A DNA stretch of 64,000 nt. Source: Centroscyllium fabricii (lineage: Eukaryota). The stretch covers positions 41,850,001-41,914,000 of the forward strand of contig JBNRSN020000002.1 of assembly GCA_051313645.2 (NCBI GenBank), in the 5' to 3' direction. Positions 1,784-60,363 of this stretch are shown one piece after another (position 1 is the stretch's first letter; the number at the start of each line of letters is the position of its first letter). Both the position numbers and the translations under genes were made by a program. The notes beneath the pieces were generated by a model. That model was given only the letters and a program-made list of their open reading frames with translations. It was not told where the DNA came from and did not search any database.

Positions 1784-2054
1784 TGTGGTAAACCATATAT
1801 CACTGTATATAACGAATCACCTTGTAATACCTTGTAATACCTGTAATACCCTGTAATACCTGTAAGGGATCCCAGGAACATACCTGGCGCCGCCCATGAC
1901 TCCTCCCCCGCTGGAGGAGGTATATAAGCGACTGCTCCCATCCCCCATGCCATTCTGGGGACAGTCAGCTCAGTTGTGTATTGCTAACGTAGTTAATAAA
2001 AGCCTGATTATTATAACCAACTATTCGACTCCGAAGACGTTATTGACGGTTACA
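1784..2054 (+). repeat. 5' LTR of Gypsy A
   Basis: TGTGGTAAAC start, TATATAA near 1921, AATAAA 1995-2000, TTACA end; matches 7165-7435. Confidence 0.95.
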
Positions 2055-2747
2055 ATTTTATTAACTACTGGAAATGGATACTACAATGTTGAAACCATCA
2101 GTGTTCGAAGTTGACCCCTGATCGCCTGGAGCATCAAACGCTTTCTCACACTGGCGAAATGTACTTGAAGGATACGTTAGAGCCAACGCAGCGGTCATAC
2201 TGACCGAAGAGCAAAAACGACGACTCCTCCACGCCCGGGTGGGCCCGCAAGTATATTCGATGATAGTGGACGCCCCATCATTCCAAGAAGCCCTCAGGAT
2301 CCTCGAGGCGGAATACAATCGGGCACCAAACAGAGTCCACGCGAGACATATACTCGCCACCCGAAAACAACAGAATAACGAGTCAAGTGTGCAGTTCCTA
2401 AGAGCCCTCAGAATCCTGGCACGGGACTGTGACTGCAGAGCGCAAACGGCTCTAGTGCATATGGAGAGTCTCATCAGGGATGCCTATGTAACAGGCCTGA
2501 AATCGGACTATGCTAGGCAAAGACTGCTAGAGCAGAATGGCCAGGACTTACAGGCCACTACAGACTTGGGACACGCGCTAGATAGCGCCTCTACGGATTT
2601 ATCATCCTACTCTAGTAACTATACGGCCCCAGCCCCGCAATCTTGGACAGTACTGGCGCAAAGACCGCCAGAGGAACTTCTCACAGCGGCCCACGCTAAA
2701 GCTAAATGCTACTTCTGTGGGCAACCACAGCATCCAAGACGCAGCTG

Positions 2748-3742
2748 TGTAACGGTTGGGTGTATTCGGAATGAAGGCGGGGCCCAAATGCAGAGACACT
2801 GAAACGTTTATAAAACTAAACAACTTTATTCCTAAAACCCCTTATAATACCCTAAACATAACAATATATATATAACACATATTCAACACAAGTCTTATAA
2901 ACAGACCGGCACAAACTTCCAAACAGCGAGCAATGAATAGAGGAGTGCTACGCAATCCAGGCGCGCCATTTTCCCCAAGAGTACCAGTCCTGGCATAACT
3001 GTCCACCCAAAGAGAACCGAGCAAGTCCTCCTCAGCGAGCATGACATCTCATTCCACCCCTCTGCATAGAGGATGTGGGAACAGCTATGCTTCCAGATGA
3101 CCAATGTCCAAACCAGGGTTCGGGTGATGAAATGAATGTCCATGTAGTGGAAATGGGTCCGACCTACTTCTTCTGCTCAGACACAGAGACTTAACCCCAT
3201 GGCAATCAGGCAGTAGCGCACCAGATCCACCGGCAGGGGGACTCCCTTACCAAACAGATGAATGTCCATGTCTGAGTTTCCAATAGCAGGGAGCACTGTC
3301 AAGGCGGAGGGAAATGCGTTCCACCCCAATGCCCCTGTTGGGTAACCCAGCCTGAGCACCAGAAATAGCAAAGAACAAGTACCAGCTGAGTCCATCGATC
3401 TGCAACTTCCTTGTTCCTGACGGTGACTCAGCACAGCAGAAAACCACCTCCTTCCAGTGGCCTGAAGAATGAACAATGGATAGCAGTCCAGTCCCATGAC
3501 GCATTACACTGCAATGATCCAGCATCTGTTCTCAGCCAACCTCCTGATTATATCCTAACCCCAGCAAGTACCCTATTGGGTGATAGCCAATAATCCTGAG
3601 GGGATGAGAACAGAGCACAACTACCACACACATAGATAATTGAACAATTAATAACATAACTAGGAACCTATTCCTTGAAACAGCTGTGGAGAAACAGCAA
3701 AAACTGTTTCTTAATATTTAAAGGAACAGGCCCCCCGTGACA
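2748..3742 (-). mobile_element. 995-bp solo LTR-like insertion in gag of Gypsy A
   Basis: Termini TGTAACGG..CCGTGACA, 5-bp TSD AGCTG (2743-2747/3743-3747), minus-strand AATAAA near 2825; no coding motifs. Confidence 0.85.
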
Positions 3743-3979
3743 AGCTGCCCCGCAAAAGAAGCAATCTGCTCCAAGTGCGACAAAAAGGGACACTATGCGA
3801 AGGTTTGCAAAGGCCCAAACGCTAAATCAAGACTGGGCAGCGCTGCATGTGGAACAGGGGAGCAGCAATATCGGGCTCACCCATCCCCCACTCGGCAGCA
3901 CTCGAGGCAGCAACAGCGGCCATCTTGGGCCCAACAACGCAACACATGGCGGCAGCCATCTCGGGGAGCAGATCTGGAG

Positions 3980-4042
3980 GACTACTCTCCGGATCAAGAT
4001 AACTACTCTCCGGACCAAGATAACTACTCTCCGGATCAAGAC
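3980..4042 (+). repeat. 21-bp tandem repeat x3 (NYSPDQD) in gag-PR linker
   Basis: AACTACTCTCCGGAYCAAGAT repeated in frame. Confidence 0.9.
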
Positions 4043-7000
4043 TTTTTGGAGGACCCGGTGCTAGCATCCGTGAGCCTAGACCAGAGGAAAATCCAGCCAC
4101 TGGAGAGGTCGATGATGCCGGTGGAAGTTAACGGTGAAGAGGTGATGTGCCTGTTCGACAGTGGGAGCACAGTAAGTTTTGTTCACCAGAATACTGTTAA
4201 GCGCCTCTCCCTTAAAGTAATCCCTGCGCGCCAGAGAATATCTATGGCGTCCAAGTCAGAATCCGCTGACGTCACCGGGCGCTGTATTGTAACTCTTAAT
4301 GTACAGGGCGCAATGTTCAATGATTTTAGTTTTTACGTGCTGCCGCAGCTCTGCGCCCCCCTACTTCTGGGACTGGATTTCCAGTGCCATCTTCGGAGCG
4401 TTACAATGGCATTCGGTGGACCCCTTCCCCCTCTCACAGTCACAAACCGCGGCTCAAAGCGGCACCCCCAGTACACTACCTGTGGTCTCTCAACCCTTAA
4501 GGTTGCCCCTCCATCCCTCTTTGCCAATCTCACCCCAGACTGTAAGCCCGTCGCCACCAAGAGTAGGCGCTACAGTGCTGGGGCCATGGCATTTATAAAA
4601 TCCGAGGTGCAGCGCCTCCTAAAAGAAGGAGTCATAGAGGCCAGTAATAGCCCCTGGAGAGCACAGGTAGTCGTGGTGAAAACCGGGGAGAAGAATAGGA
4701 TGGTAGTGGATTACAGCCAGACCATAAACCGGTTCACCCAATTAGATGCCTACCCCCTTCCCCGGATAGCGGACATGGTGAACCAAATCGCCCAGTTTAA
4801 AGTGTTCTCGACCATTGACCTTAAATCTGCTTATCACCAGCTCCCCATCCGCTCAGAGGACCGTCTCTATACTGCCTTTGAGGCTGACGGCCGCCTCTAC
4901 CACTTCCTTAGGGTTCCGTTTGGAGTCACGAACGGGGTCTCGATCTTCCAAAGGGAGATGGACCGAATGGTTGATCGGTACAGGCTGCGAGCGACCTTCC
5001 CGTACCTTGATAACGTGACCATCTGCGGCCATGACCAGCAGGACCATAACACCAATCTCCAAAAATTTCTCCACACGGCCAAAGCCCTGAATTTAACGTA
5101 TAATAAGGAGAAATGTGTGTTTAGCACCACCCGCCTCGCCATCCTCGGCAACGTGGTGGAGAATGGAGTCATCGGTCCAGACCCGGACCGCATGCGCCCC
5201 CTCATGGAGCTTCCCCTCCCCCACTCCCCCAAATCTCTTAAACGGATTTTGGGATTCTTTGCCTATTACGCCCAGTGGGTCCCCAATTACGCGGACAAAG
5301 CTCGCCCACTATTAAAATCAACCTCTTTCCCACTTTCTGCAGAAGCCAACTCGGCATTCTGCAGAATTAAAAATGACATAGCCAAAGCCACAATGCACGC
5401 TGTGGATGAGTCCGTCCCATTCCAAGTGGAAAGTGATGCATCGGACTTTGCCCTGGCCGCCACCCTTAATCAGGCGGGCAGACCCGTGGCCTTCTTTTCA
5501 CGTACCCTCCAAGGCCCAGAAACCCGCCATTCCTCAATTGAAAAGGAGGCCCAGGCCATTGTTGAAGCAGTGCGGCACTGGAAGCACTACCTGGCCAGCA
5601 AGCGTTTTACCCTGTTGACTGACCAACGCTCAGTCGCCTTTATGTTCAACAACAAAGAGCGGGGTAAGATCAAGAACGACAAGATATTAAGGTGGAGAAT
5701 TGAACTCTCTGCGTTCAATTATGATATCTTGTACCGGCCCGGGATATTTAACGAACCCCCAGACGCACAGGCTGACAGTCTCCAAACCCTTCACAATGAC
5801 CTCTGCCACCCGGGGGTCACCAGGTTGGTTCACTTTGTGAAGTCCCGCAACCTCCCCTACTCCATCGAAGAGGTCAAGACCATGACCAGCAACTGCCAGG
5901 TCTGCGCGGAGTGCAAGCCGCACTTCTACCGGCCAGACCGGGCGCACTTAATCAAGGCCACTCGCCCCTTTGAACGACTCAGCGTCGATTTTAAAGGGCC
6001 CCTTCCCTCAGCCAACAGGAACGTCTATTTCCTCAATGTTATGGATGAGTACTCCCGTTTCCCCTTCGCCATACCCTGCCAGGACATGACCTCAGCCACC
6101 GTCATCAAAGCCCTCAGTAGCATCTTCTCCCTGTTCGGGTACCCTAACTATATCCATAGTGACCGGGGGGCCTCTTTTATGAGTGACGAGCTGCGTCAGT
6201 TTCTGCTAACAAAAGGCATCGTGACCAGCAGGACTACCAGCTACAACCCCCGGGGGAACGGGCAGGTAGAGAGAGAGAACGCCACGGTCTGGAAAGCCAT
6301 CCAGTTAGCCCTAAAGTCCAAAGACCTCCCAGTCACCCGATGGCAGGACGTTCTCCCTGAAGCCCTCCACTCTATCCGGTCCCTACTGTGTACTGCCACT
6401 AATGCCACCCCTCACGAAAGACTTTTTGCCTTCCCCAGGAAGTCAGCTTCCGGGACCTCGCTACCATCGTGGCTGTTATCTCCGGGACCGGTCCTGCTGC
6501 GGAAGCATGTGAGGGGACACAAGGCAGATCCCCTAGTCGAACGGGTCCACCTCCTGCACGCCAATCCCCAGTACGCTTACATAGCATACCCCGACGGGAG
6601 GGAGGACACCGTGTCCATAAAGGACCTAGCCCCAGCAGGAGTCCCCAAAACCAGCCCCGCCAGGCAGCCCGAGCTCCCCAAACGTCCTGTGAAGCTCCCC
6701 GCGCCACCGAGGCCGAAGTACACGCCCCGACACGTGGGCCCAGTACCCCAGTATGTCCACAAGGCACCTGCGAGCAGCACGACCCGGCCCCAAGCCTGGA
6801 TCCACAACGCGCGCCCCCTAGAGTCAGAGGACGAAGGAGAGAACGTGGCCCTTGCTGTCAGAATAAGGGCATCACCGCCACCCAGAAGTGATATAACCAC
6901 CACCAGTCGACCGGCAGCAAGGGAACAACCGACACAACCAGCCACTCCACGACAACGAACACCACAGGCACCACCGGCACCACCAGCGGTGCGAAGATCA

Positions 7001-7164
7001 GCGCGGATGACGAAACCGCCTGACAGACTGAATTTATAGTCAAAAGAACTCTGATTGTATATATTGTGTTAATGAGCACCTTGTAATTATTAGTTTTTTT
7101 TCACCTCGTTGTACTTCCGTGTTTTGTTCACCCCGCTGTACTTTTGTTTTAAAGAAGGGGTGAA

Positions 7165-7435
7165 TGTGATAAACCATATATCACTGTATATAACGAATCA
7201 CCTTGTAATACCTTGTAATACCTGTAATACCCTGTAATACCTGTAAGGGATCCCAGGAACATACCTGGCGCCGCCCATGACTCCTCCCTCGCTGGAGGAG
7301 GTATATAAGCGACTGCTCCCATCCCCCATGCCATTCTGGGGACAGTCAGCTCAGTTGTGTATTGCTAACGTAGTTAATAAAAGCCTGATTATTATAACCA
7401 ACTATTCGACTCCGAAGACATTATTGACGGTTACA
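7165..7435 (+). repeat. 3' LTR of Gypsy A
   Basis: Direct repeat of 1784-2054 preceded by PPT. Confidence 0.95.
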
Positions 7436-8029
7436 GGCAGAATGTTCCCAATGTTGGGGAAGTCCAGAACCAGGGGGCACAGACTAAGGATAAGGGGTAA
7501 GCCATTTAGGACCGAGATGAGGAGAAACTTCTTCACCCAGAGAGTGGTGAACCTGTGGAATTCTCTACCACAGAGAGTTGATGAGGCCAGTTCACTAAAT
7601 ATATTCAAAAGGGAGTTCGATGTAATACTTACAACGAGGGGGGATCAAGGGATATGGTGAGAAAGCAGGAACGGGGTACTGAGGTAGCATGTTCAGCCAT
7701 GAACCTGTTGAATGGCGGTGCAGGCTCGAAGGGCTGAATGGTCTACTCCTGCACCTATTTTCTATGTTTCTATGTTTCTATATACATGCAAACTATCGTT
7801 GTTGTTTAATAGGCTGCTTCCGGGCATGCCTCCTCTTCTGGCTGTGGAGTGGGGTTTCCATCTTGGCAGGTGAGGTGGCCCAACTCATCTTTATGCGATG
7901 GCTGTTTGAAACTTTCCTTTATTGAGAAAATCTAAGTAAAATGTCAAAGCCAGTGGCGCAGGATGTTGCCATGGCTGAGAGCAGAAGGAGACATGGTAAA
8001 CCGAGGGGCAGGGATCAGATGATGCCACC

Positions 8030-12692: not shown

Positions 12693-15028
12693 TGATGTAT
12701 CGTCAATTAAAACGCAAAGACGAGTAGTTACCTAAACTACAGGCTTTTATTACCTAACAATGGAGCTGGCCTCCTGATGAGTTCAAAGCGAAGAATGAGT
12801 GGGGGCAGGGCAGCCCTCACCTATATGCTCCGACCTGAGGGGAGGAGTTAGGGGTGTGGCTGACCTGGCCTACAATACAATACCAGATGAGCCATCAACT
12901 ATTTACAGTGGTATTTACACGATTACCACATTCACCCCTTCTTTAAAAACAAGTCCGGCGGGGTGAACGTGCCTTCTGGTAAAAAAATAATTCTAAATGT
13001 CCATTAGCAATTAGCATTGCGTTATTAGTCTCTCCGGCGGTCGCGTCGGCCTGGAGGACCGCCGGGGTGCCGGCAATGGTGGTGCCAGTTGCAGGGCCGG
13101 GATCGAGCTACTGACGGTGAGTGGGGCCAGTGTTCCACCGAAATCCACCATCACGCTCTTCAGGTGACACTGGAAATCCAGTCCCAGTAAGACTGGGGCG
13201 CACAGCTGCTGGAGTACGTACAACTTAAAGTTGCGGTAAATGCGGTCCCTGATCGTGAGCGTGATGCTGCAGTAGCCGGTGGCGTCCACCGTGTGGGACT
13301 TTGAGGCAAGGGAGACTTGGTAGTGCGTGGGCTGGGACTGCAGTGTGTAGCGCCGCACTGTGTCGGGATGTATGAAGCTCTCTGTGCTACCGGTGTCGAA
13401 CAGGCAGCTAGTGGCGTGCCCGTCCACCTTAATCCCCATCATGGAGTTGGACAAGGTTTGCGGCCTAGCCTGATCGACGGTGGCTGAGGCCGAAGTGTAT
13501 GTGTGTGAGTGGGGGCCCTCCGCTATCTGGGGCCCCGGCCGGGGCAGTTGGCAAGATGGCCGCTCAGAAGATGGCGGCGCTGGCGATGCGCACGTGTCCG
13601 GCTGCTGTGGACAAGATGGCGCCGCCCGTGGTTCGCACGCGGCCGACTGCAGTGGACAAGATGGCGGCGCCCGTGGTTCGCACGCGGCCGACCGCTGTGG
13701 ATAAGATGGCGGCGCCCATGGTTCGCACATGGCCGACCGCTGTGGATAAGATGGCGGCGCCCGTGGTTGGCACGCGGCCGACCGCGGTGGACAAGTTGGT
13801 GGCGCCGGGGGTCGCACATGGCCGGTCGCGGTCACGTTTGAAGTGGCAGCGCCTGTGCCGCGCGCGCGGCCGTCCTCCGCCGTACAGTTAAAGGGGATTG
13901 AGGCGCCCACGATTTACCCCCGGCTGACCGCTGCTGGGTCACGCTGCAACACCGTACCTGGAGACATGGAGTGGCATCGCTGTTCACGCAGGCTGCGCTG
14001 TTGGGTCTGGAGGTGGAGGCTGGGCTGGATTTGCACACCTTCGCGTAGTGCCCATTCTTCTCGCACCGCGCGCAGGTCGCATTCTTCGCGGGGCAATGCA
14101 CCTTCGGGTGCTTTCCTTGGCCGCAGAAGTAGCATCTGTGCCCCGCCAGTGTCTTCGCAGTCGCCGCTGCCATCGTGGGGGTCTCGGCCTGTCGCTGTGT
14201 CGCCCAGGGGTCAGGGGTACATTGGGAGCCATGATCTCCGTACGCCTCCAGCTTTCGAAGCGCTCAGTCCACCACATTAGAAAGCGTTACCGCGGACTCA
14301 AGCGACAGTGTGTCCTGCTCCAGCAGCCGCTGGCGGGCCTGGCTGTACCTGAGTCCAGCCACATAGGCATCGCGGATTAGGAGGTTCGCCTCTTCCTCCG
14401 CTGTCCTTGCCTGGCAGTCGCAGGCCCGTGCGAGGGCTTGGAGCGCTAGTAGAAACAGTTCATTTGACTCACCGAGTCGTCTTCTGGTCGCCAGAACATG
14501 CCTGGCATAGACCGAGTGGGCCGGGCGCATGTAGCAGTCCTTTAATTTCGTGGCCGCTTCCTCGTAAGTCTTGAGGCCGCGGATAAAAAGTACACCCGGC
14601 CGCTGATCCGTGATGAGAATACCTGGAGTTTGTCCTCATCACTTGCAGCCTTTACGGCCTTTATGTAGGCCTCGACCAGGCCAAATCAGTGTTCAAAGTC
14701 GTTAGCAGCATCGGGTGCCTGAGGATTTATGTCGAGGCGATCCGGTTTCACTGCGTTATTCTCCATGTTTTAAAATTTAGTTAAGAAAATTGACATATCG
14801 TCAATTAAAACGCAAAGACAAGTATTTACCTAAACTACAGGCTTTTATTAACTAACAATGGAGCTGGTCTCCTGATGAGTTCAAGGCGAAGAATGAGCGG
14901 GGGCAGGGCAGCCCTCACCTATGTGCTCCGACCTGAGGGGAGGAGTTAGGAGTGTGGCTGACCTGGCCTACAATACAATACCAGATGAGCCATCAACTAT
15001 TTACAATGGTATTTACACGATTACCACA
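12693..15028 (-). mobile_element. Gypsy B, internally deleted (gag + protease only)
   Basis: 238-bp LTRs 14791-15028 (5') and 12693-12930 (3'), TSD GATAC, PPT 12931-12944, gag ATG 14766, knuckles CYFCGQGKHPKVHC, LFDTGS; jumps from post-protease to the integrase tail RRSSRPTRPPERL. Confidence 0.95.
13550..13830 (-). repeat. 45-bp minisatellite (SAACEPRAPPSYPQR-like) in gag-PR linker of Gypsy B
   Basis: About 5 units of CTGTGGAYAAGATGGCGGCGCCCGTGGTTCGCACGCGGCCGACCG on the plus strand. Confidence 0.9.
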
Positions 15029-16225: not shown

Positions 16226-18965
16226 TGTGGTAAACCTGTGTTATACCACTGTCATGGTACCGTAATGTACCTGTAACTACCTTGCTGTTAACACTGTACA
16301 TATCTGTAAATATGCTGAAGGTCGACCCCCCCCTCACTGTTCGCCAATCTCAGCCCCAACTGCAAACCCATTGCGACCAAGAGTCGGCGATGCAGTGCGG
16401 GGGACCGGGCGTTTATCAGGACGGAGGTCGAGCGCCTGTTAGGGGAGGGGATCATCGAGGCCAGTACCAGCCCTTGGAGAGCCCAAGTCATGGTGATTAA
16501 GTCGGGTGAAAAACTGCGCATGGTCATAGACTATAGCCAGACCATTAACCGCTACACTGGGCTCGACGCGTACCCACTTCCCTGCATCACGGACATGGTC
16601 AATCAGATCGGCCAGTACAAGGTCTTCTCCACCATTGACCTTAAGTCGGCATACCACCAGCTACCCATCCGGGCTGCGGATCACCGGTACACCGCCTTCG
16701 AGGCGAATGGGCGACTCGACCACTTCCTCTGGGTTCCCTTCGGTGTTACCAACGGAGTGTCAGGCTTCCAGTGGGAGATGGACCGAATGGTTGACCAGAA
16801 TAAGTTGCAGGCCACCTTCCCCTATTTAGACAATGTCACTGATGTAATAATGGAGTCTGATACATCAATAACTTAATCCACTACATTATCACTATGTACA
16901 AAGATGGGTTTTACCATGCTTCCAGGTGAAGCGTTCCCCCATACTGAGCAGTTCCAGTATTTATACTAACAGAAAACAGGAAGTGACATGTACAGAGTTC
17001 ACCCCTTAGCCTTCCCCTGGAAGTCTGTTCAATATTACCACAGTCACCATCTGCGGCCATGATCAGCAGGACCATGATGCCAACCTTGCCAAATTCCGCC
17101 GCACGGCCCGGCGTCTGAACCTCACGTACAATGAGGACAAATGTACCTTTAGTACTAACCGTCTCGCCATCCTCGGTTACGTGGTAGGAAACGGGGTCCT
17201 TGGCCCCGATCCCCAACGTATGCGCCCCCTGCAGGAGCTGCCCCAACCCCACAATCTCAAAGCCTTGAAAAGATGCCTGGGGTTTTTCTCCTATTACGCT
17301 CATTGGGTGCCCCAGTACGCGGATAAGGCCCGGGCTCTCCTCAAGGCTGCCGTCTTCCCACTCCTGGTAGAAGCCCAAGCGGCCTTCATCTGGATTAAGG
17401 AAGATATCATCAAGGCTACCATGCACGCCGTTGATGAGTCCATTCCCTTCCAGGTCGAGAGCGACACAGTGCCCAGCTCAACAGGCTGCAGGCCATCCAT
17501 GATAGCCTCCGAAACCCGGGAGTCACCAGACTCGCACACTTTGTCAAGTGCCGCAACCTCCCCTACTCCATTACGGAGATCAAGGCCATGACCAAAGAGT
17601 GCCCTGTCTGTGCTGAGTACAAACCCCAATTTTACAGGCCAGACAAGGCACACCTCATCAAGGCCACCAGCCCCTTCGAGCACCTGAGCGTGGACTTCAA
17701 AGCTCCCCTCCCTTCCACTGACCGCAACTCGTACTTCCTCACGGTCATTGATGAGTTCTCCCGCTTCCCCTTTGCCTTCCCCTGCCCATACATGACGAGC
17801 ACGATGGTGATCAAACACTTCACCACACTCTTCGCGATCTACGGCCTCCCCAGTTACATCCACAGCGACCGGGGGTCGTCGTTCATAAGCGACGAACTGC
17901 GTCAGTTTCTGCTCCAGCAGATGATTGCCTCGAGCAGAACCACCAGTTACAACCCCTGGGGGAATGGCCAGGTAGAGAGAGAGAATGGGACGATCTGGAA
18001 GGCGGTCATCCTGGCCCTTAAATCGAGGGGCCTTCCAGTCTCCCATTGGCAAGAGGGCCTCCCCATGGTGCTACACTCCATTCGTTCTCTCCTGTGCACC
18101 ACAACTAACGCCACACCTCATGAACGATTGTTTTCATTCCCCAGGAGATCGACTTCGGGGACAGTGCTCCCGCCGTGGCTGACCACCCCGGGGCCAGTTT
18201 TACTCGGAAACACGTCCGCGGCCACAAGACGGACCCCCTGGTGGAACGGGTGCAGCTGCTCCATGCCAACCCGCAGTACGCATATGTGGCATACCCGGAT
18301 GGGCGTGAGGACACGGTCTCGATAAGGGACCTGGTGCCTGCCGGGATCACGGACACCGAACCCCCGGCCGAGCCCCAGCTCTGCCAACCGGCACTCACTG
18401 GCCTATGGCCTATACAAACACAACACACACTGGGGCCCTCAACGCCTATACACACACGACACACCGGGGCCCTCGACATCGTCAGCTGACGACTGGGGGA
18501 CTGACACCACGCCGCCAGCACCCGTGGCTGACAACACACCACCGACTCCGCTGCCGGAACCATCGAAACCAGCACCCCATCGGTCCCTCCGACAGGCGAA
18601 ACCACCGGAGAGACTGATCACGAAATGTTGACGGCAGACACTGACATGCATTCACCCCGCCGGACTCATTCTACAGAAGGGGTGAATATGGTAAACCTGT
18701 GTTATACCACTGTCATGGTAGCATAATGTACCTGTAACTCCCTTGCTGTTAACGCTGTACATATCTGTAAATACCTGATTGCAGGAGCCTGCCTCGACTG
18801 ACCCCGCCTCTGACTCCTCCTCTGGGTCTAGGTATATAGGTGGCTGCTTACCATCCCCCGGTCAGTACTGCCCTGAGCTCAGCCGAGACATGCTCCATTC
18901 TTTAGTGAATAAAAGCCTTTAGTTAAGGTAACTCTTCGTCTTTTAGTCTTATTGACGATACGTCA
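16226..18965 (+). mobile_element. Gypsy D, multiply deleted
   Basis: TSD CCCTG; 5' LTR remnant 16226-16312 joined directly to pre-RT sequence (LKVDPP); RT and integrase with frameshifts; most of RNase H deleted near 17466; 3' LTR 18687-18965 after PPT. Confidence 0.93.
16840..17042 (-). mobile_element. 203-bp solo LTR inserted just after the YLDN motif of Gypsy D
   Basis: TSD GTCAC 16835-16839/17043-17047; minus strand TGTGGTAAT..ATTACATCA with TATAAATA. Confidence 0.85.
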
Positions 18966-28331: not shown

Positions 28332-30715
28332 ATTATGTTTTATGACTTATATCATTTATTACTTAAATTATAAAAATACTTTTGAGATTACAGCTTTATT
28401 TCTGAAACTTTCGCTAATACTACGACATACTTAAACTCAAAGAAAGGATGTCAAAATACAAGTTCGCCCAGGGCGCCATGTTCCCTAAGGCCAGCCCTGC
28501 CTAACAAGAACTCGCCGTTTGTTTAATGACTAACCATAACTATTGTGGCCCAAGATGACATACTTGCAATGGAAGTTTAGAGCCAACTTAACCCACGATG
28601 ACAGGCTCGCTAATCAGGTAGCTGAGCTCAGCTTTTGTCCTGTGGCCCTTTTAAAATTCCGCCCGGAAAAGCAGAGCGTTAAGTGTACCGCTTTCGTTTG
28701 AACTCCTGTTTCTGCCGGGCAGTGGGACTTCAAATTCTCCCCTCCGCTCTGCCAATTTTTCAATAGTTTGGTTTGGAGATTCTTCAACACAGTGATAGCC
28801 ACAGACCCGGCCGAGCAAAAACAAAACCCGTCTCCTGAGAGAAGAGGTCACTGTTCACCTACATTGACGAGGGTACAGTAATGCACTGCTCAGGTGCGGC
28901 ACTCATTGTTGCCAGGACTCCCACCGATTTATTGCATTGGTTTTCATAGCTTGTCATAGCCGCAATCCAATAGCACTTTATTTCACTGTGTTAAACAAAG
29001 ATAAGCAGGAACGCATTAGTCACATTAGAACCATATATTATATCAAGCACCGTGTATATACAATACTTTTTCTTGGATTAGCTCAGTGATAGATGGCAAT
29101 GCCGAAACAGAAGCTGTCAGGGCTCCTGACACAGGCATCTTTTTTGGGCAATACAGCACACTGAAAGTTTTACACGGGCATCAGTCTCAATGCAATATAG
29201 AGGCTGCAGAAGCAGCCCAGAAACCACTGGCATTCTGACGAAAGGTCATCGACCAGAAACGTTAACCCTGTTTCTCTCTCCACCAAAGCTGCCTGTCCTG
29301 CTGAGTTTTACGGCATTTTCTGTTGTTATTTCAGCATTCTGTTTTGCTTCATTTAAGAATTATACCTTAACCGGCTATCAAACCTTTTTTTTAAATTCAT
29401 TTATGGGTTGTGTGCATCGCTGGCAAGGCCAGCATTCATTGCCCATCGCTAGTTGCCCTCGAGATGGTGGCGGTGAGCCGCCTGTAAGGGGTGGTGTTTG
29501 TGGTTCTCAGCTTTGCCTCTGACTTATGAGTGGTTCGAATCGCTCCCACTCCCTTTGGTTCTAGACCTGGGGCTTATTTGGGGGCAGTAATGAAAACTGA
29601 GTTGGTGAAAAAACTTTGATTTTTACTTTGAGAAAATATAATTACACAACACAATAATCTTATCACTCTAAAATTGGGGGAACACTTTGGAAATATGCGA
29701 AGGAGAATAACAATAGACACAATACTTCCCCCTTCCAATCCCACTTCACTAACTAAGTTGAGCTCCAAAGGACCAGGGATAATGCTCACCAAAATGACTT
29801 CCTTTGACAGTTGTAGAGGTTCGCGATTTTGGGGTTCTCTAAATGTGGCAGTTGGGGCCTGCCGTACCCCGGACGTGGTAGAGGACTTCACCTGCATTGC
29901 TGTTCAGTCTCCGCGTGTCCGCTGATGCGGTCAGGTGCGTATTGGATCTATCGGGTAAGTACCCAATTTTTTGTGGTCAGAAGTAGGGTTTCGAGTCTTT
30001 TCATTCAAATCTTACCTAGGGGGGTAAGTCAGAATAGATTGTAGAGTGGAACAAACTTGCGAATCTTCGGTTTCTTTCAAGTTGGTTTCTTGTTGGTCGC
30101 TGTGGCCCAATATTACCCAGTTGCTGGTAATATTTTGGTTGTTTGTTTTTATGGGGCCCTTGGTTGCTGCGAGGTGTCCGATGTCTTCTTCTGGCCCTCC
30201 ACTTACAGTGCTTTCGTGACTTCACGTGACTGAGCCCACTTGATGTGGATTTTGAAGTCACCGTTGTTACTGCTCGAATTCCTTTCAACTTGATTTTTTC
30301 TTCTTCACCGAGCCGTGCTGAACCTGAACCTTGAACTGAGTTGACTGTTGATCTCTCACTGTTGTAAAAACAGGTCCTCAATTATACCTGTGGTAACCGT
30401 TATATGTACTTGTATTACCACCCCAATATTGTTACCAATATTACATGTATGTATAGCGGCCGGGTGCATGATGTAACTGCCCTGTATTCCGACACTGTCG
30501 CGGGGTCAGGTCAGCCACACCTCTAACTCCTCCCCTCAGGTGAGTGCCTTATAGGTGGGGACTGACCGGCCCCCATTCATTCTGTACCTGATGTTCGATC
30601 GGAGCGTAGCTCCGTTGTAAGCTAATAAAAGCCTATAGTTAAGGTAACTACGCGTCTTTAGTTTTATTAGACTATTGACGATACGTCAATTTTATTAGCT
30701 TAGAAAAATTCTAAA

Positions 30716-33700
30716 ATGGAGAGCGGCGCTGTAAAACCCGAAAAGCTGGACATTAGTCCACAGGACCCAGCCGCCACCAACACCTTCGAACACTGGTTCG
30801 GTCTCCTGGAGGCCTACATGAACGCCGCCAAGGCTACAACCGAAGAGAACAAGCTACACGTTCTCCGGTCCAGGATCTCCAGCTGGGTATTCTTCTTCAT
30901 CCGTGATGCCACAACGTACCCCGATGCGGTGGCTAAACTGAGGAAATGCTACGAGCGCCCGGTCCACTCAGTCTATGCCAGGCATGTGCTCACGAACAGA
31001 CCACAACTACCGAGTGAGTCAAATGAGCAGTTCGAGCAGGCACTCCAAGCCCTTGTCCGGGTCTGCGGCTGCCAACCACGGACGGCAGAAGAGGAGGCGA
31101 ACCTCCTCGTCCGGGACGCCTATGTAACGGGACTCAGGTCCGCAGAAGCTCGCCAGCGGCTGCTGGAAAAAGACACTTTAACTCTGGAGGAGGCGATCTC
31201 TATCGCCAACGCTGCTGAGGGCGCACGCCGCAAGCTGCAGGCGTACGGCGGCCCAAACCCACAGGCCGTCTACGACGCGTGGGCAGCCCCACAACGGGTC
31301 GAGACCCCCACAATGGCAGCGGCAGCTGTGAAGACGCCGGCGGAGAAGAAATGCTAATTCTGCGGCCAGGGACTACACCCACGGGCGAGATGCCCAGCGA
31401 AGACCGCGACCTGCGAGAGGTGCTCAAAGAAAGGACACTACGCCAAGGCCTGCAGATCAGCCCCGGCGTCCAGCTACAGGTACAACAGCGCGGCCTGCGA
31501 AAGCTCCAACACCAGCCCTTAGCCTCAGGTAAGCTGCAACTGCAGCGCGACCCAGCGACGGTCCGGGGGTAGAGTACAAGCGCCCCCGTCTCCCACCCGG
31601 ATGCGGCAGAGGCCGGCTGCACCCACGGCATGCCAAACTCAGCCACGGCCGGCCATGCGCGAACCCCCAACGCTGGCATCCCGCCCAGCGCGGCTCGCTG
31701 CGTGCGAATCACGGGCACCGCCAACCCAGCCGCCGCGGCCCGCTGCGTGCGAACCACGGGCACCGCCAACCCAGCCACCGCGGCCCGCTGTGTGTGAACC
31801 ACGGGCACCGCCACCGCGTCTACAGCTGCCCGCCGCGTGCGAACCACGGGCACTGCCATCTTGTCCGCTGCGGCCCGCCATGTGCGACCCCCGGCGCCGC
31901 CATCTTGTCTTCAGCGGCCAGCCACGTGCGACTCTCCGGTGCCGCCATCTTGTGTACGGCCCCGACCAGCGGAGGGCTCCCACACACACACACACACACT
32001 TCGGCCTTAGCCATCCCGAAAGTCGATCATGCTAGGCCGCACACCCTATCAAATTCCATGATGGGGATTAAAGTCAATGGCCATGCCACTAACTGCCTGT
32101 TCGACACTGGAAGCACATAGAGCTTCATTCACCCCGATACAGCGAAACGCTACGGACTGCAGATCCTGCCCACGCGCTACCAGGTCTCCCTTGCTTCACA
32201 GTCCCACACCGCAGACGTCACCGGCTACTGCTCGGTCACATTCACAGTTAAGGGCTGCGTGTACCGTAATTTTAAATTGTACATAGTCAAGCAGTTGTGC
32301 TCCCCAGTCTTACTGGGTCTGGATTTCCAGTGCCACCTTAAGAGTTTGACAATGGAGTTCGGCGGGACCCTGTCCCCCCTCACCATCAGTAGCCGGGAAA
32401 ATCTCTTCCCAAAGCGGAGCCCGGCCTGCGGCCTCTCCACCCTGAAAGTCGACCCCCCCTCACTGTTCGCCAACCTCGACCCCAACTGCAAGCCCATTGC
32501 TACTAAGAGTCGGCGGTACAGTGCGGGGGATCGGACGTTTATCAGGTCGGAGGTCGGGCGTATGCTGAAGGAGGGGATAATTGAAGCCAGCACCAGCCCC
32601 TGGCGGGCCCAGGTTGTAGTGGTTAAGACTGGCGAGAAACATCGGATGGTTATCGATTACAGCCAGACCATTAACCGCTACACCGGGCTTGATGCCTACC
32701 CCCTCCCCCGCATCTCGGAAATGGTTAACCAGATCGCCCAATACAAGGTGTTCTCCACAATCGACCTTAAGTCGGCGTATCACCAACTCCCGATCCGGAA
32801 AGCCGACCGCCCGTACACCGCCTTCGAGGCGAACGGTCGGCTCTACCACTTCCTCCGGGTCCCCTTCGGCGTGACCAACGGGGTGTCGGTATTCCAGAGA
32901 GAGATGGACCGCATGGTTGACCAGAATGGGTTGCAGGCCACCTTCCCCTACCTGGACAACGTGACCATCTGCGGCCATGACCAGCAGGACCACGATGCAA
33001 ATCTGGCCAAATTCCTCGACACGGCGAAACGGCTAGATCTCACATACAACAAAGACAAATGTGTCTTTAGTACAGATCGGCTCGCCATCCTCGGATACGT
33101 GGTGGAAAACGGGGTCCTCGGCCCCGACCCACAGCGTATGCGCCCCTTACAGGAACTGCCCCTTCCTCACAACCCTAAAGCCCTGAAGAGATGTCTGGGA
33201 TTTTTCTCTTATCACGCGCAATGGGTTCCCCAGTTCGCGGATCAGGCCAGACCGCTCCTTAAGGCTGCCGCCTTCCCCCTCTCGGTAGAAGCCCAAACGG
33301 CATTCGCCCGGATCAAGGAAGACATTATCAAGGCGACCATGCACGCCGTTGATGAATCCATCCCTTTCCAGGTGGAGAGTGACGCTTCGGACTTTGCCCT
33401 TGCCGCCACCCTGAATCAGGCAGGCAGGCCCGTAGCATTTTTCTCCCACACCTTACAGGGACCCGAGATTCGACACTCTGCAGTGGAAAAGGAGGCCCAG
33501 GCCATCGTGGAGGCCGTGCGCTACTGGCGTCATTACCTGGCCGGTAAGCGTTTTACACAGCTCACCGACCAACGGTCGGTCGCGTTTATGTTTAACAATA
33601 AACAAAAGGGTAAAATCAAGAATGATAAGATCCTGCGGTGGCGGATCGAGCTCTCGACTTACGAGTATGACATTCTTTACCGACCAGGCAAACTCAATGA

Positions 33701-34984
33701 ACCCCCGGACGCACTGTCCAGGGGAACGTGCGCCAGTGCCCAGCTAGACCGGCTGAAGGAACTCCACGATCGCCTCTGCCACCCGGGTGTCACCAGACTT
33801 GCCCACTTCGTAAAATCCCGTAGCCTCCCCTACTCCATCACAGAGATCAAGGCTATGACCCGAGAGTGCCCTGTTTGCGTCGAGTGTAAACCCCAATTTT
33901 TCAGGCCAGACACGGCGCACCTCATTAAGGCCACCCGCCCCTTTGAACGTCTAAGCGTGGACTTCAAAGGCCCCCTCCCCACCACCGACCGCAACTCGTA
34001 CTTCCTCACAGTCGTAGACGAGTTCTCCCGCTTCCCCTTCGCCTTCCCCTGCCCAGATATGACGAGCGCAACGGTGATCAAACACTTCACCACGCTGTTC
34101 GCTATTTTTGGTCTCCCCAGCTACAGCCATAGCGACCGGGGGGGCGTCGTTCATGAGCGACGAACTGCGTCAGTTTCTGCTTCAGAAAGGGGTTGCCTCA
34201 AGCAGAACGACCAGTTACAACCCCCGGGGGAACGGCCAGGTAGAAAGGGAGAACGGGATCGTCTGGAAGGTGGTCAGCCTGGCTCTGAAGTCCAGAGGCA
34301 TTCCAGTGTCCCGTTGGCAGGCAGTCCTCCCTGATGCGCTGCACTCGATACACTCTCTGTTGTGTACGGCCACCAACGCCACACCTCACGATTTAATCTT
34401 TTCCTTCCCCAGGAAGTCGACTTCGGGGACAGCCCTTCCACCGTGGCTCACGATGCTGGGGCCGGTCTTGCTTAGGAAGCACGTCCGCGGCCATAAGACC
34501 CACCCCCTGGTAGACAAGGTGCAGCTGCTGCACGCCAACCCACAGTACGCGTACGTACAGTTCCCGGACGGGCGCGAGGACACTGTCTCCATCAGGGACC
34601 TAGCGCCCGCCAGGAGCACCACAGCAGAGCCCCTGGTCGGGCAGCAGCCCGCCCAGCCACTATATTTCGGCCACCTCCAGCCACTACATATCGACCACTG
34701 GCCGATACACGACCCACAACCCACCAGAGGCTGGCCGCCACTACCGTATGGTTCGGAGCCCCCGCCATTGCCAGCTGAGGCCAAGACTCGGATGACCAGC
34801 TGCAGGCACAGCAGCAACCGCAGGGCTCGGACCCACCGCCACCACCAGCACCTACAGTACCGGCACCAGCGCCGCCGCCACCACCACCGGCTCCAACGCC
34901 GCCAATGCTGCAGGAACCAGAACATTTGACAGAGACCCGGCGGTCCTCCAGACAGACGCGACCGCCGGATAAGCTAATCATGAA
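30716..34984 (+). pseudogene. gag-pol of Gypsy C, disrupted
   Basis: ATG 30716; stops at 31355 and 32118, frameshifts near the (CA)n run 31981-31999 and the G-run near 34140; RT-RH-IN open 32259-34140. Confidence 0.92.
31650..31960 (+). repeat. 45-bp minisatellite (AACEPRAPPTQPPRP) in gag-PR linker of Gypsy C
   Basis: CGCTGCGTGCGAACCACGGGCACCGCCAACCCAGCCGCCGCGGCC units. Confidence 0.85.
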
Positions 34985-36214
34985 CTGCTCTGTCCATTCA
35001 CCCCGCTGGACATGATTTTCAAAGAAGGGGTGAATGTGGTAACCGTTATATGTACTCGTATTACCACCTTAATATTGTTACCAATATTACATGTATGTAT
35101 AGCGGCCGGGTGCATGATGTAACTGCCCTGTATTCCGACACTGTCGCGGGGTCAGGTCAGCCACACCTCTAACTCCTCCCCTCAGGTGAGTGCCTTATAG
35201 GTGGGGAATGACCGGCCCCCATTCATTCTGTACCTGATGTTCGATCGGAGCGTAGCTCCGTTGTAAGCTAATAAAAGCCTATAGTTAAGGTAACTACGCG
35301 TCTTTAGTTTTATTAGACTATTGACTATACGTCAATACCGTTTGAGGCCTGCTAATCTGCCCGCCAAATCAGCTGTCTCTTTGTTACTTTTGGTGGGCTC
35401 GTTAATAATGATGGGTTTGAAATTGTTTAATAGATTTCGGGATTCTCCTATTTTAAGATGGTCCCATTAATTCTTAAATGGTCTAAACGATTGTTTAGCC
35501 TTTTGTTTGATCACACTGAAATTTGTCTTTTCCTGTTGGGCCTTTGTTGGTTGGTGGCATGTTCTGCATTATGTATGCTTTGGATGGTTCTGTAATTTTG
35601 GCGGGAACTGCTCTTCCGTTGGCCTTTTGTCATTATGTAAAACAACTGAGACAGTCCAGATCGTTCCCAGACAGCTTCGCTTATGCCAATTTCCAAACTG
35701 GCCGTTTACAGAGGCCCATCCCAATTCCTTTGTTTGCAGCCTTTTTCCTCCCACAGGCTCGAACATGCTTTTTAAAATAGTCAAAAATCCTGGGGTTTTG
35801 ACTTTAAACCCCCTTTTCGGCCCAATATTCTGATACCTTTGTGACATGGGTTTTTAAACAGTTCATAAATCTCTTCTTTATGGTAATCTTCTTGGTTTTT
35901 GGGATCTGCAGAATTTTGCGAGTCCTACATGCCTTCTTGAATCGCTGCAGTCCGAGTGGAGAAGGTACTCCCATAGTGCTGTTAGGGAGGGAGTTCCAGG
36001 ATTTTGACCCAGCAACGATGAAGGAACGGCGATATTTCTAAATCAGGATGGTGTGTGACTTGGAGGGAAACTTGCAGGCGGCGAAGTTCCCATGCACCTG
36101 CTGGCCTTGTCCTTCTAGGTGGGAGAGGTCACGGGTTTGGGAGGTGCTGCCGAAGAAGCCTTGGCGAGTTGCTGCAGTGCATCTTGTAGATAGTACACAC
36201 TGCAGTCACGGTAT

Positions 36215-58946: not shown

Positions 58947-59896
58947 TGTGGCGGGTCGCCACCTAAACGGGCGAATCCGCTCTGACGTCCACGGACGCTT
59001 CACCAGGCAACGCGCCTGCAAGACTCTGCTCGCACAGAGTTCGGCTGCCGATGCGCTGATGTCATCACGCAGCCGGGCTGGTATACGCGCTGACGTCATC
59101 GCGCAGCTGTACCCGCTTACAGGCTCACTCGGTACCGCGATGCCATTAAAGTAAGTACTGTTTAAACTCACTCGGTCTCGGCCTCTACTTGTGTCCGTCA
59201 GCAGCCTCAACACTGGTGACCCCGACGCTTGGAATGAATTCCGAGCCCTGCAATGGCGGACACAAACGCAGTTCCGGTCAAACTGCCTGAGTTCTGGGAA
59301 AACCTGGCCGCAGCCTGGTTCCTCCAAGCCGAGTCCAGATTCAGGATACAGCGCATCAACAGAGATGGCACGATGTATGATTACCTCGTCGCCTCGCTGA
59401 GTAGCTCCACGGTCACGAAGGTCTGGACAACGCTGCAGAACCCACCTGAGCACGGCAAGTACGCACATCTTAAGGCCGCGCTCCTTAAAAGATTCACGGC
59501 CTCCCAATATACATGCAACTGCCAGCTCCTCGACCTCCCAGGCCTCGGTGATGCCTCACCGTCAGACCTGCTCTCCCACATGCTCTCGCTCACGGACGAG
59601 AAGCCACCAGGGTCCCTCTTCCGAGCGTTATTCATCCACCAGCTACCCCCCAGCATCCAGCCTACCATCGTGGTGGCTGACCACACGGACCTAGTGGCGC
59701 TGGTCGACGAGACCGACAAGCTCCTGTCCACCCAAGCCAGCCGCGGCACAATTCCCGACATGGCAGCCGCCGCCACGGCGCGTCCCGCCTCACACTTCAT
59801 GCGGCCACAAGGCCCGGCCATGAAGCCCACGTGGCCGAAGCGACCCTCAAGCCCTCTGAACCCGGGGTACTGCTACTACCACGCACAGTTCGGCAT
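58947..59896 (+). mobile_element. CsRn1-clade Gypsy 5' remnant (LTR, tRNA-Trp PBS, gag)
   Basis: LTR TG..CA 58947-59212, PBS TGGTGACCCCGACG 59214-59227, gag 59253 onward (VKLPEFW..AWFLQAE, LGDASPSDL, CYYHAQFG) truncated by a SINE fragment. Confidence 0.88.
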
Positions 59897-60363
59897 CAGT
59901 GCAGTGTTCCCTCAGTACTGCACTGGAGTGTCAGCCTAGGTTTTTGTGCTCACTTCTCTGGATATGGGTTTTAAATCTCAGTTCAAGCAGGACATTAAAG
60001 TAGCAAACAGTCTGTTACAACCTGAGAGAATGGCTAGGGTAGGCAACAAGAGATAGTGACGAGGGAATGGAGTAAGTTGCAGGGCCACATCTGTACAAAC
60101 ATTTCCAAAACTATTGCTGCTCCAAGGCCCCATGAAGCAGTGTTTCTAAAACATATGACCCCCATTGCCACTGTCTTGTGCCCCACGCACAAATCAGTGC
60201 CCTAACCTGAGTGGTGCAACATTAAAATTGATCCATTGCAACTGCAGCTGTTGGCTCAGACTCCATGGATTTATTTTAGATTATGAACATATCCCCTTAT
60301 TGAGAACTGGACAGGCTGTTTGGGGGGAAGCAGTGGAAAACCACTCAAGCTGAAGGTGGCTGA

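What the first reader, a model, noticed from the sequence alone, without database searches (positions are those of the whole stretch)
7127..7164. Conserved anti-PPT hairpin sequesters the plus-strand primer in all four elements
Seen: TTCACCCC lies about 22 nt upstream of the PPT end GGGGTGAA in A (7127-7134/7157-7164), C (about 34996-35036, extended to CATTCACCCC/GGGGTGAATG), D (about 18650-18687) and B (minus strand, about 12931-12967), while loops and neighbouring 3' UTR diverge. It survives the large deletions in B and D. Inference: a cis-acting RNA or ssDNA stem for PPT processing, packaging or strand transfer; together with the PBS duplex, both priming sites are base-paired in cis.
Basis: partly seen in the sequence, partly recalled or inferred. 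Interest (0 to 1): 0.7.

Follow-up and report, generated by a model that had tools for sequence, protein, structure and literature searches.

The report
RNA stem over retrotransposon plus-strand primer
In one very abundant group of jumping genes in this shark- or ray-like genome, a short upstream stretch matches the end of the second-strand primer site and is predicted to fold over it as an RNA stem, as reported for HIV, where it likely stalls the copying enzyme briefly at the primer boundary; no function has been tested.

Summary
The inverted repeat is real: 4 matches, 0 in 100 shuffles. The four elements are Ty3/Gypsy LTR retrotransposons, and 77,295 of 91,490 matching PPT/LTR junctions genome-wide carry the exact arm. 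The variation fits a plus-strand RNA stem of about 10 bp. About 12,000 copies have arm A>G opposite the PPT's U (a G•U pair), while the arm T opposite PPT A changes in only 339. The arm also persists in or out of the ORF. Limits: no two-sided covariation, and 0 of 12 more distant lineages show significant pairing. The loop is as conserved as the arm. Neither deletion comes near the stem. The stem must be unwound before the primer exists, so it cannot sequester it. The same architecture is published for HIV/SIV PPTs (PMC4439019), where its function is disputed. Best guess: an RT pause at the PPT/U3 junction; a protein-binding loop or a by-product are close rivals. No earlier scan note on this hairpin was found. 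Verdict: new variant of a known kind, modest interest.

The parts
1784..7435 (+). Element A, Ty3/Gypsy LTR retrotransposon (LTRs 1784-2054 and 7165-7435; 5-bp TSD)
   Evidence: Pfam PR-RT-RH-IN order; LTR pair 98.9%; flanks
7126..7134 (+). A: anti-PPT arm (7127-7134, plus 7126 pairing G•U with the first LTR base); non-coding, 88 nt after the stop at 7039
7135..7150 (+). A: conserved loop motif and T-tract (U-box-like)
7151..7164 (+). A: purine tract up to the LTR boundary; its last 8 nt are the 3' arm
7100..7107 (+). A: partial upstream duplicate of the arm (one C>T)
12693..15028 (-). Element B (LTRs 14791-15028 and 12693-12930), internal deletion of RT-RH-IN with junction near 13108
12927..12971 (-). 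B: 12-pair stem (arm 12971-12960, purine tract 12944-12931, first LTR bases 12930-12927)
16226..18965 (+). Element D, 5'-deleted (LTR remnant 16226-16313 joined to RT; 3' LTR 18687-18965)
18650..18687 (+). D: 9-pair stem (arm 18650-18658; purine tract 18673-18686); non-coding
30389..35334 (+). Element C (LTRs 30389-30688 and 35035-35334)
34995..35036 (+). C: 10-pair stem (arm 34995-35004, read as the last integrase-ORF codons in this family; purine tract 35021-35034)
1989..2068 (+). A: 13-bp duplex between the AATAAA-containing LTR segment (1989-2001) and the non-tRNA PBS (2056-2068); context, not the finding itself

Best explanation
An upstream arm complementary to the G-rich end of the polypurine tract is conserved in one Ty3/Gypsy subclade and is predicted to form a roughly 10-bp stem in the element's RNA, which likely pauses reverse transcriptase at the primer/LTR boundary during first-strand synthesis and so would help RNase H define the second-strand primer. 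Shown by sequence and counts: the complementarity, its conservation across families whose UTRs differ, its independence of reading frame, and substitutions that keep G•U pairs on the plus strand. Predicted: the fold (stem closing over the last 8 nt before the LTR and 2-5 LTR bases, leaving the A-rich PPT half in a loop). Inferred from established LTR replication: RT arrives from U3, meets the stem base just before the PPT and must unwind it. Inferred and untested: the pause, and any effect on RNase H cleavage. I put about 0.75 on a selected RNA stem and about 0.35 on this function.
For: (1) 77,295 of 91,490 exact PPT/LTR junctions have the exact arm 10-30 nt upstream. In an integrase-anchored, position-chosen sample, 17 of 26 elements with a junction have the exact 8/8 arm and 3 more have 7/8 (32 integrase hits, 6 without a junction; the 26 include 3 window elements). 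(2) Wobble pattern: 12,576 copies have a non-A at arm position 4; 94 of 100 listed are G, and 99 of 100 keep the PPT's T. The G state sits in two separate parts of the integrase tree. Arm position 2 (T opposite A) is changed in only 339 copies, mostly scattered. In 46 representatives, the two pairs that reach into the LTR are C/U:G in 43 and A/G:U in 40. (3) Duplex energy beats composition-preserving shuffles in 8 of 12 core-clade representatives, including all four window elements (p 0.001-0.015). The stem keeps pair probability 0.87-1.0 in a 530-600 nt context. (4) The arm lies after the stop in 25 clusters and inside the ORF in 17, in different frames; 11 of 53 were undetermined. It persists when a variable poly-C run shifts it from the loop motif and where the loop motif is lost. 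(5) The stem straddles the PPT/U3 junction, as does the lentiviral PPT helix for which RT pausing was proposed (PMC4439019, section 15 read).
Against: No pair has a change on both sides, and the covariation score equals its shuffle control (0.109 vs 0.110). The PPT side is invariant, partly because many rows were selected by a PPT pattern. All the wobble toggles are transitions, the commonest mutation class, and the C:G pairs almost never go to U•G. T>C at arm position 1, which breaks the plus-strand pair, recurs in several small families (1,217 copies non-T). RNAalifold keeps only 5 pairs at -2.7 kcal/mol (poly-C rows are misaligned). Shuffled upstream regions already pair the PPT end with mean probability 0.7-0.8, and whole-segment MFE is not significant for A, C and D (p 0.12-0.23). 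0 of 12 lineages outside the clade pass the duplex test (Fisher p 0.83), and arm/PPT specificity across 13 lineages is not significant (p 0.23), so relatives replicate without it. The extension into the LTR beats random flanks in only 9 of 37 rows. Nothing here measures pausing or cleavage.
Confidence: 0.35

Rival explanations
1. The same RNA stem is real but serves as a scaffold that displays the conserved loop motif for a protein (Gag/nucleocapsid packaging, export, or a host factor); its overlap with the PPT is economy, not primer control.
For: The loop motif is as conserved as the arm. Its A shows no family-level A>G toggle in the 46-row alignment, whereas the arm's two A positions do. A weak inner helix is predicted in several families, with one two-sided change between L129 and L238 (by inspection).
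Against: The loop motif is missing in a few small families that keep the arm (L077, L211, L212, L213). Its spacing from the arm varies with a poly-C run. It has no consistent palindrome across families, so a kissing loop is not supported. No Rfam match.
Confidence: 0.3
2. The 38-nt block is conserved as sequence (for example an RT/RNase H specificity element on the hybrid, or a relic of the integrase's last codons), and pairing is a by-product of a G-tract next to C/U-rich RNA, as argued for HIV/SIV.
For: No two-sided covariation. High background pairing in shuffles. In some relatives the integrase's final codons abut the PPT and resemble the block (L118, L202, L238). PMC3616985 (passages read) argues that PPT helices may be by-products of G content.
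Against: An exact 8-10 nt complement at the junction beats same-composition shuffles. The large fixed arm variant is the one that keeps the pair. The within-element test for a duplicated coding end was positive in only 7 of 50, and the coding-abutting families are nested, not basal.
Confidence: 0.22
3. The hairpin works in the single-stranded minus-strand DNA, where it would compete with the RNA primer and help release it or suppress re-priming (compare the small DNA hairpin of duck hepatitis B virus; recalled, no call).
For: The canonical arm is a perfect inverted repeat, so it can fold on either strand (mean minus-DNA MFE -7.7 kcal/mol). T>C at arm position 1, a G•T pair in minus DNA, recurs in small families.
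Against: The A>G variant in about 12,000 copies becomes an A·C mismatch in mid-stem of minus DNA; the fold drops to -1.9 to -5.6 in four of those families.
Confidence: 0.08
4. The arm is made and refreshed mechanically by RT template switching at the PPT (quasi-palindrome correction) and has no function.
For: Short duplications and deletions are common here: family A's second arm, tandem hairpins in L105 and L125, a loop deletion in L138.
Against: Copying would give perfect Watson-Crick complements, yet G•U variants are fixed in large families. PPT point mutants are almost never matched in the arm.
Confidence: 0.05

Closest known systems
PPT and cPPT helices of HIV-1, SIVcpz and SIVmac (PMC4439019, passages and section 15 read; PMC3616985, passages read)
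   Same: The G-rich 3' end of the PPT is in a helix that bounds a mostly single-stranded A-rich 5' half, next to the RNase H cleavage site. RT pausing was proposed there, and a by-product reading was also argued.
   Different: [quoted passage not shown] Here it is only predicted, is a local hairpin with a dedicated arm 20-22 nt upstream that is non-coding in many families, and can be followed over about 10^5 genomic copies.
Ty3 PPT in genomic RNA (PMC11381356, passages read)
   Same: A Ty3/Gypsy PPT modelled as base-paired in the RNA.
   Different: The Ty3 pairings were low-probability with reactive ends, and the passages read describe no conserved complementary arm.
U-box/T-box upstream of retroviral, Ty1 and Tf1-type PPTs (PMC10085805, passages read)
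   Same: A conserved T-rich tract directly 5' of the PPT is present here too.
   Different: The U-box is a sequence element of the RNA/DNA hybrid; the C-rich arm and loop motif lie further upstream and are additional.
Tf1-type self-priming PBS duplex (PMC10085805, passages read)
   Same: The 5' end of these elements has a PBS complementary to its own LTR rather than to a tRNA.
   Different: That duplex is primer plus template and covaries freely; the PPT stem would have to be melted and shows no two-sided covariation.

Membership tests
Ty3/Gypsy LTR retrotransposon | PR-RT-RH-IN domain order | tested here: met
   Pfam on A and C
Ty3/Gypsy LTR retrotransposon | Paired TG...CA LTRs, target-site duplication, purine tract before the 3' LTR | tested here: met
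   LTR pairs 96-99% and 5-bp TSDs
Cigr-1 clade (label taken from an earlier scan note) | Monophyly with the Ciona Cigr-1 founder in an RT/IN tree | not tested
   No reference sequence was held; the clade name was seen only in note e1-9160346 and in PMC6238403 passages
Lentivirus-type PPT helix | G-rich 3' end of the PPT paired, A-rich 5' half mostly unpaired | tested here: met
   Predicted only: at least 7 of the last 8 nt paired in 42 of 46 representatives
Lentivirus-type PPT helix | Experimental probing pattern (unreactive G, reactive A) | not testable with these tools
   Needs SHAPE or DMS data
Covariation-supported RNA structure | Pairs kept by changes on both sides | tested here: not met
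   0 of 12 pairs; cross-lineage specificity p 0.23
Covariation-supported RNA structure | One-sided changes restricted to pair-preserving (G•U) states | tested here: inconclusive
   True for the large fixed variant and the LTR-reaching pairs; T>C at the terminal pair breaks the rule; all toggles are transitions
Known Rfam family | Covariance-model match | tested here: not met
   0 matches at E<=1 for window 6900-7450
Tf1-type self-priming element | PBS complementary to an LTR segment instead of a tRNA | tested here: met
   36 distinct perfect 11-13 bp variants
Tf1-type self-priming element | Self-primer at the very 5' end of the RNA | not testable with these tools
   Start site unknown; in A the segment lies about 70 nt after a TATA-like box, later than a typical start (inference)

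The most novel reading that the evidence does not exclude
This clade evolved a dedicated anti-PPT RNA arm, kept by selection even when non-coding, that gates reverse transcriptase at the PPT/U3 junction. It would be the first case where a PPT helix is shown to be a functional part of plus-strand primer definition rather than a by-product, settling by analogy the open question for HIV/SIV.
Probability: 0.2. Interest if true: 0.65.

Novelty: new variant of a known kind. Interest (0 to 1): 0.38.

Why it matters
Whether the helix over the lentiviral PPT does anything is disputed (PMC4439019 against PMC3616985) and is hard to test because those PPTs lie within coding genes. Here the pairing arm is non-coding in many families and its variation can be read over about 10^5 copies, which favours selection for a plus-strand stem and offers short natural templates for an in vitro pause and cleavage test. 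The feature is confined to one subclade and its function is unknown, so it is a useful test case rather than a new mechanism.

Tried and rejected
1. Apparent A-U to G-C compensation (L149 and three similar rows): rejected. One search shows these are sporadic PPT changes inside families whose arm already has G. 2. Hairpins seen by eye in distant relatives (L090, L119/L123, L120, L125, L105, L252) and in a tRNA-primed outgroup (L136, L141, L069). With shuffles, only L125's second repeat (p 0.03) and L136 (p 0.04) passed the pairing-probability test, and none passed the duplex test. I do not count them as covariation. The duplex test is weak for arms next to the PPT. 3. Origin by duplication of the integrase's last codons: 7 of 50 within-element tests at p<0.05; kept only as a lead. 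4. B as a non-autonomous family: junction found once (exact 18-mer, so diverged copies could be missed); one search was void because the pattern was mistyped. 5. Kissing-loop palindrome: not consistent across families. 6. Viral contigs: no relatives. 7. Sequencing runs: no RNA holder listed; not used as evidence. 8. Literature: searches listed no paper describing this arm in this clade; two found nothing on the RT motif; 23 and 67 did not place the clade. The library lacks most subscription journals, and no supplements were read. 9. Rows left out: for the alignment, 9 of 53 clusters represented only by copies picked for a mutated PPT were dropped and window B and D were added; one mis-called junction (F47), one near-duplicate (F01) and the non-core clusters were excluded earlier. 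Clusters are not independent lineages.

Full report
Observation. The pattern occurs four times in the window, at 7127-7164, 12931-12967, 18651-18686 and 34997-35034, against 0 in 100 shuffles. Each 3' arm ends at the first base of a 3' LTR. The elements are Ty3/Gypsy LTR retrotransposons with PR-RT-RH-IN order, short LTRs and 5-bp TSDs, in a 7.2-Gb genome. Among the named protein relatives, the closest by identity are from sharks and rays, with further relatives in a cnidarian and a nematode; the host label is an inference. An earlier scan note calls the clade Cigr-1; I did not test that.

How general it is. The exact 17-nt PPT/LTR junction occurs 91,490 times, and 77,295 of these (84.5%) have the exact arm 10-30 nt upstream. 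To avoid selecting on the PPT, I anchored on integrase in position-chosen stretches. Of 32 hits, 26 had a junction; 17 of these had the exact arm, 3 had 7 of 8 matches, 1 had an intact arm with a mutated PPT, 1 belonged to a family with a shortened arm, 2 to a family with a 6-pair arm and 2 to a sister family. That clade also holds one long-branch relative from another host, L117, which has no arm.

Corrections. The loop does not diverge: over 46 representatives the upstream UTR columns are about 0.3-0.5 identical, the arm 0.89-0.98 (0.72 at the A/G position), the loop motif 0.74-0.96 and the T-tract 0.89-0.93. The unit is a conserved block of about 38 nt. The deletions do not test it. B's junction is about 140 nt away and unique in the genome; D lost its 5' end.

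Evidence for an RNA stem. At arm position 4, 12,576 copies have a non-A; 94 of the 100 listed have G and 99 keep the PPT's T. This makes a G•U pair on the plus strand and an A·C mismatch in minus-strand DNA. The G state occurs in two separate parts of the tree. At position 2, where a transition would break the plus-strand pair, only 339 copies differ, mostly as scattered singletons of all three kinds, with one small family. The anchors of these patterns differ, so the ratio is approximate. The two pairs reaching into the LTR toggle between C/U opposite G (43 of 46 paired) and A/G opposite U (40 of 46); the next pair out is unpaired in 29 of 46, which sets the stem at about 10 bp. The duplex beats dinucleotide shuffles in 8 of 12 core representatives and holds in a longer context. 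The arm is after the stop in 25 clusters, inside the ORF in 17 and undetermined in 11; window element C is among the coding ones. It also survives displacement by poly-C runs and loss of the loop motif. In family A the proximal arm is intact in 27 of 29 parsed copies, while an upstream duplicate is exact in 7 of 29 (largely one inherited change).

Evidence against. No pair changes on both sides and the covariation score equals its control. An apparent compensation dissolved. All toggles are transitions. T>C at the terminal pair recurs in small families; by inspection these can re-pair with the LTR start in a shifted register, but the extension test passed in only 9 of 37 rows. RNAalifold keeps 5 pairs. 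G-rich tracts pair easily with shuffled upstream RNA (0.7-0.8). Outside the subclade, 0 of 12 lineages (two sister families in this genome and ten from other hosts) pass the duplex test, and cognate specificity is not significant (p 0.23 for 13 lineages; 0.076 for 9 hand-picked ones). By contrast, the PBS duplex shows 36 perfect variants, as expected if the PBS is recopied from its primer (inference).

Mechanism. By established LTR replication (reviewed in PMC5371799, passages read), the PPT becomes a primer as an RNase H-resistant RNA/DNA hybrid after minus-strand synthesis has passed it. A stem in the genomic RNA cannot sequester that primer; RT must open it first. RT comes from U3, so the stem base, 2-5 nt inside the LTR, is the first obstacle before the PPT. 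A pause there, promoting RNase H cuts near the junction, is the mechanism proposed for the lentiviral PPT helix (PMC4439019) and is my best guess (0.35). A scaffold for the conserved loop (0.3) and a by-product of G content (0.22; PMC3616985) are close. A minus-strand DNA hairpin (0.08) and mechanical generation by template switching (0.05) fit the fixed G•U pairs poorly. The true primer end may lie two bases before the LTR's TG, as recalled for MLV; this was not tested.

Comparison and novelty. A helix over the G-rich PPT end is published for HIV-1 and SIV and, weakly, for Ty3; a T-rich box before the PPT is also known. There is no Rfam match. Literature searches listed no description of this arm in this clade, within a library that lacks most subscription journals; no supplements were read. 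Look-ups of earlier scan notes returned none on this hairpin. PMC10886601 and PMC3362945 (passages) added nothing. What is new is a local, often non-coding, dedicated arm with population-scale wobble evidence in one Gypsy subclade.

Verdict. Real feature, probably a selected RNA stem, function untested, interpretation partly supported. New variant of a known kind; interest 0.38.

Noticed in passing
window 1989-2001 with 2056-2068; 36 variants across loci: The PBS pairs with the LTR segment that contains the AATAAA/ATTAAA signal, so the 5' duplex could both prime first-strand synthesis and hide the poly(A) signal of the 5' LTR. It covaries perfectly and is present in distant hosts.
   Followed up: partly
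window ORF 3722-7039 (P0001): The RT catalytic motif reads YLDN rather than YxDD; also noted earlier in this scan.
   Followed up: no
window about 2747-3743: A roughly 1-kb TG...CA insertion with an apparent 5-bp duplication interrupts gag of element A; probably a solo LTR of another family.
   Followed up: no
L073/L105-L116 and L251-L280: Two sister families with a different purine tract. One is very young (150 of 150 listed integrase hits at 100% rounded identity) and usually carries a tandemly duplicated pyrimidine/purine hairpin before the LTR.
   Followed up: partly
L221-L250: A group of families has an unstable poly-C run of very variable length between the arm and the loop motif.
   Followed up: partly
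L238, L202, L203, L118: Families in which the integrase stop codon abuts the purine tract; their last codons resemble the arm-plus-loop block of the window families.
   Followed up: partly
L069, L136, L141: A distant Gypsy group (about 29% integrase identity, tRNA-like PBS) also has a pyrimidine arm able to pair with its G-rich PPT; mostly not significant against shuffles.
   Followed up: partly
L117-L126: Relatives of this animal retrotransposon sit in contigs labelled as bacterial MAGs, probably host contamination.
   Followed up: no
window 59238-59939: A DUF7041 gag-like frame of another LTR element.
   Followed up: no
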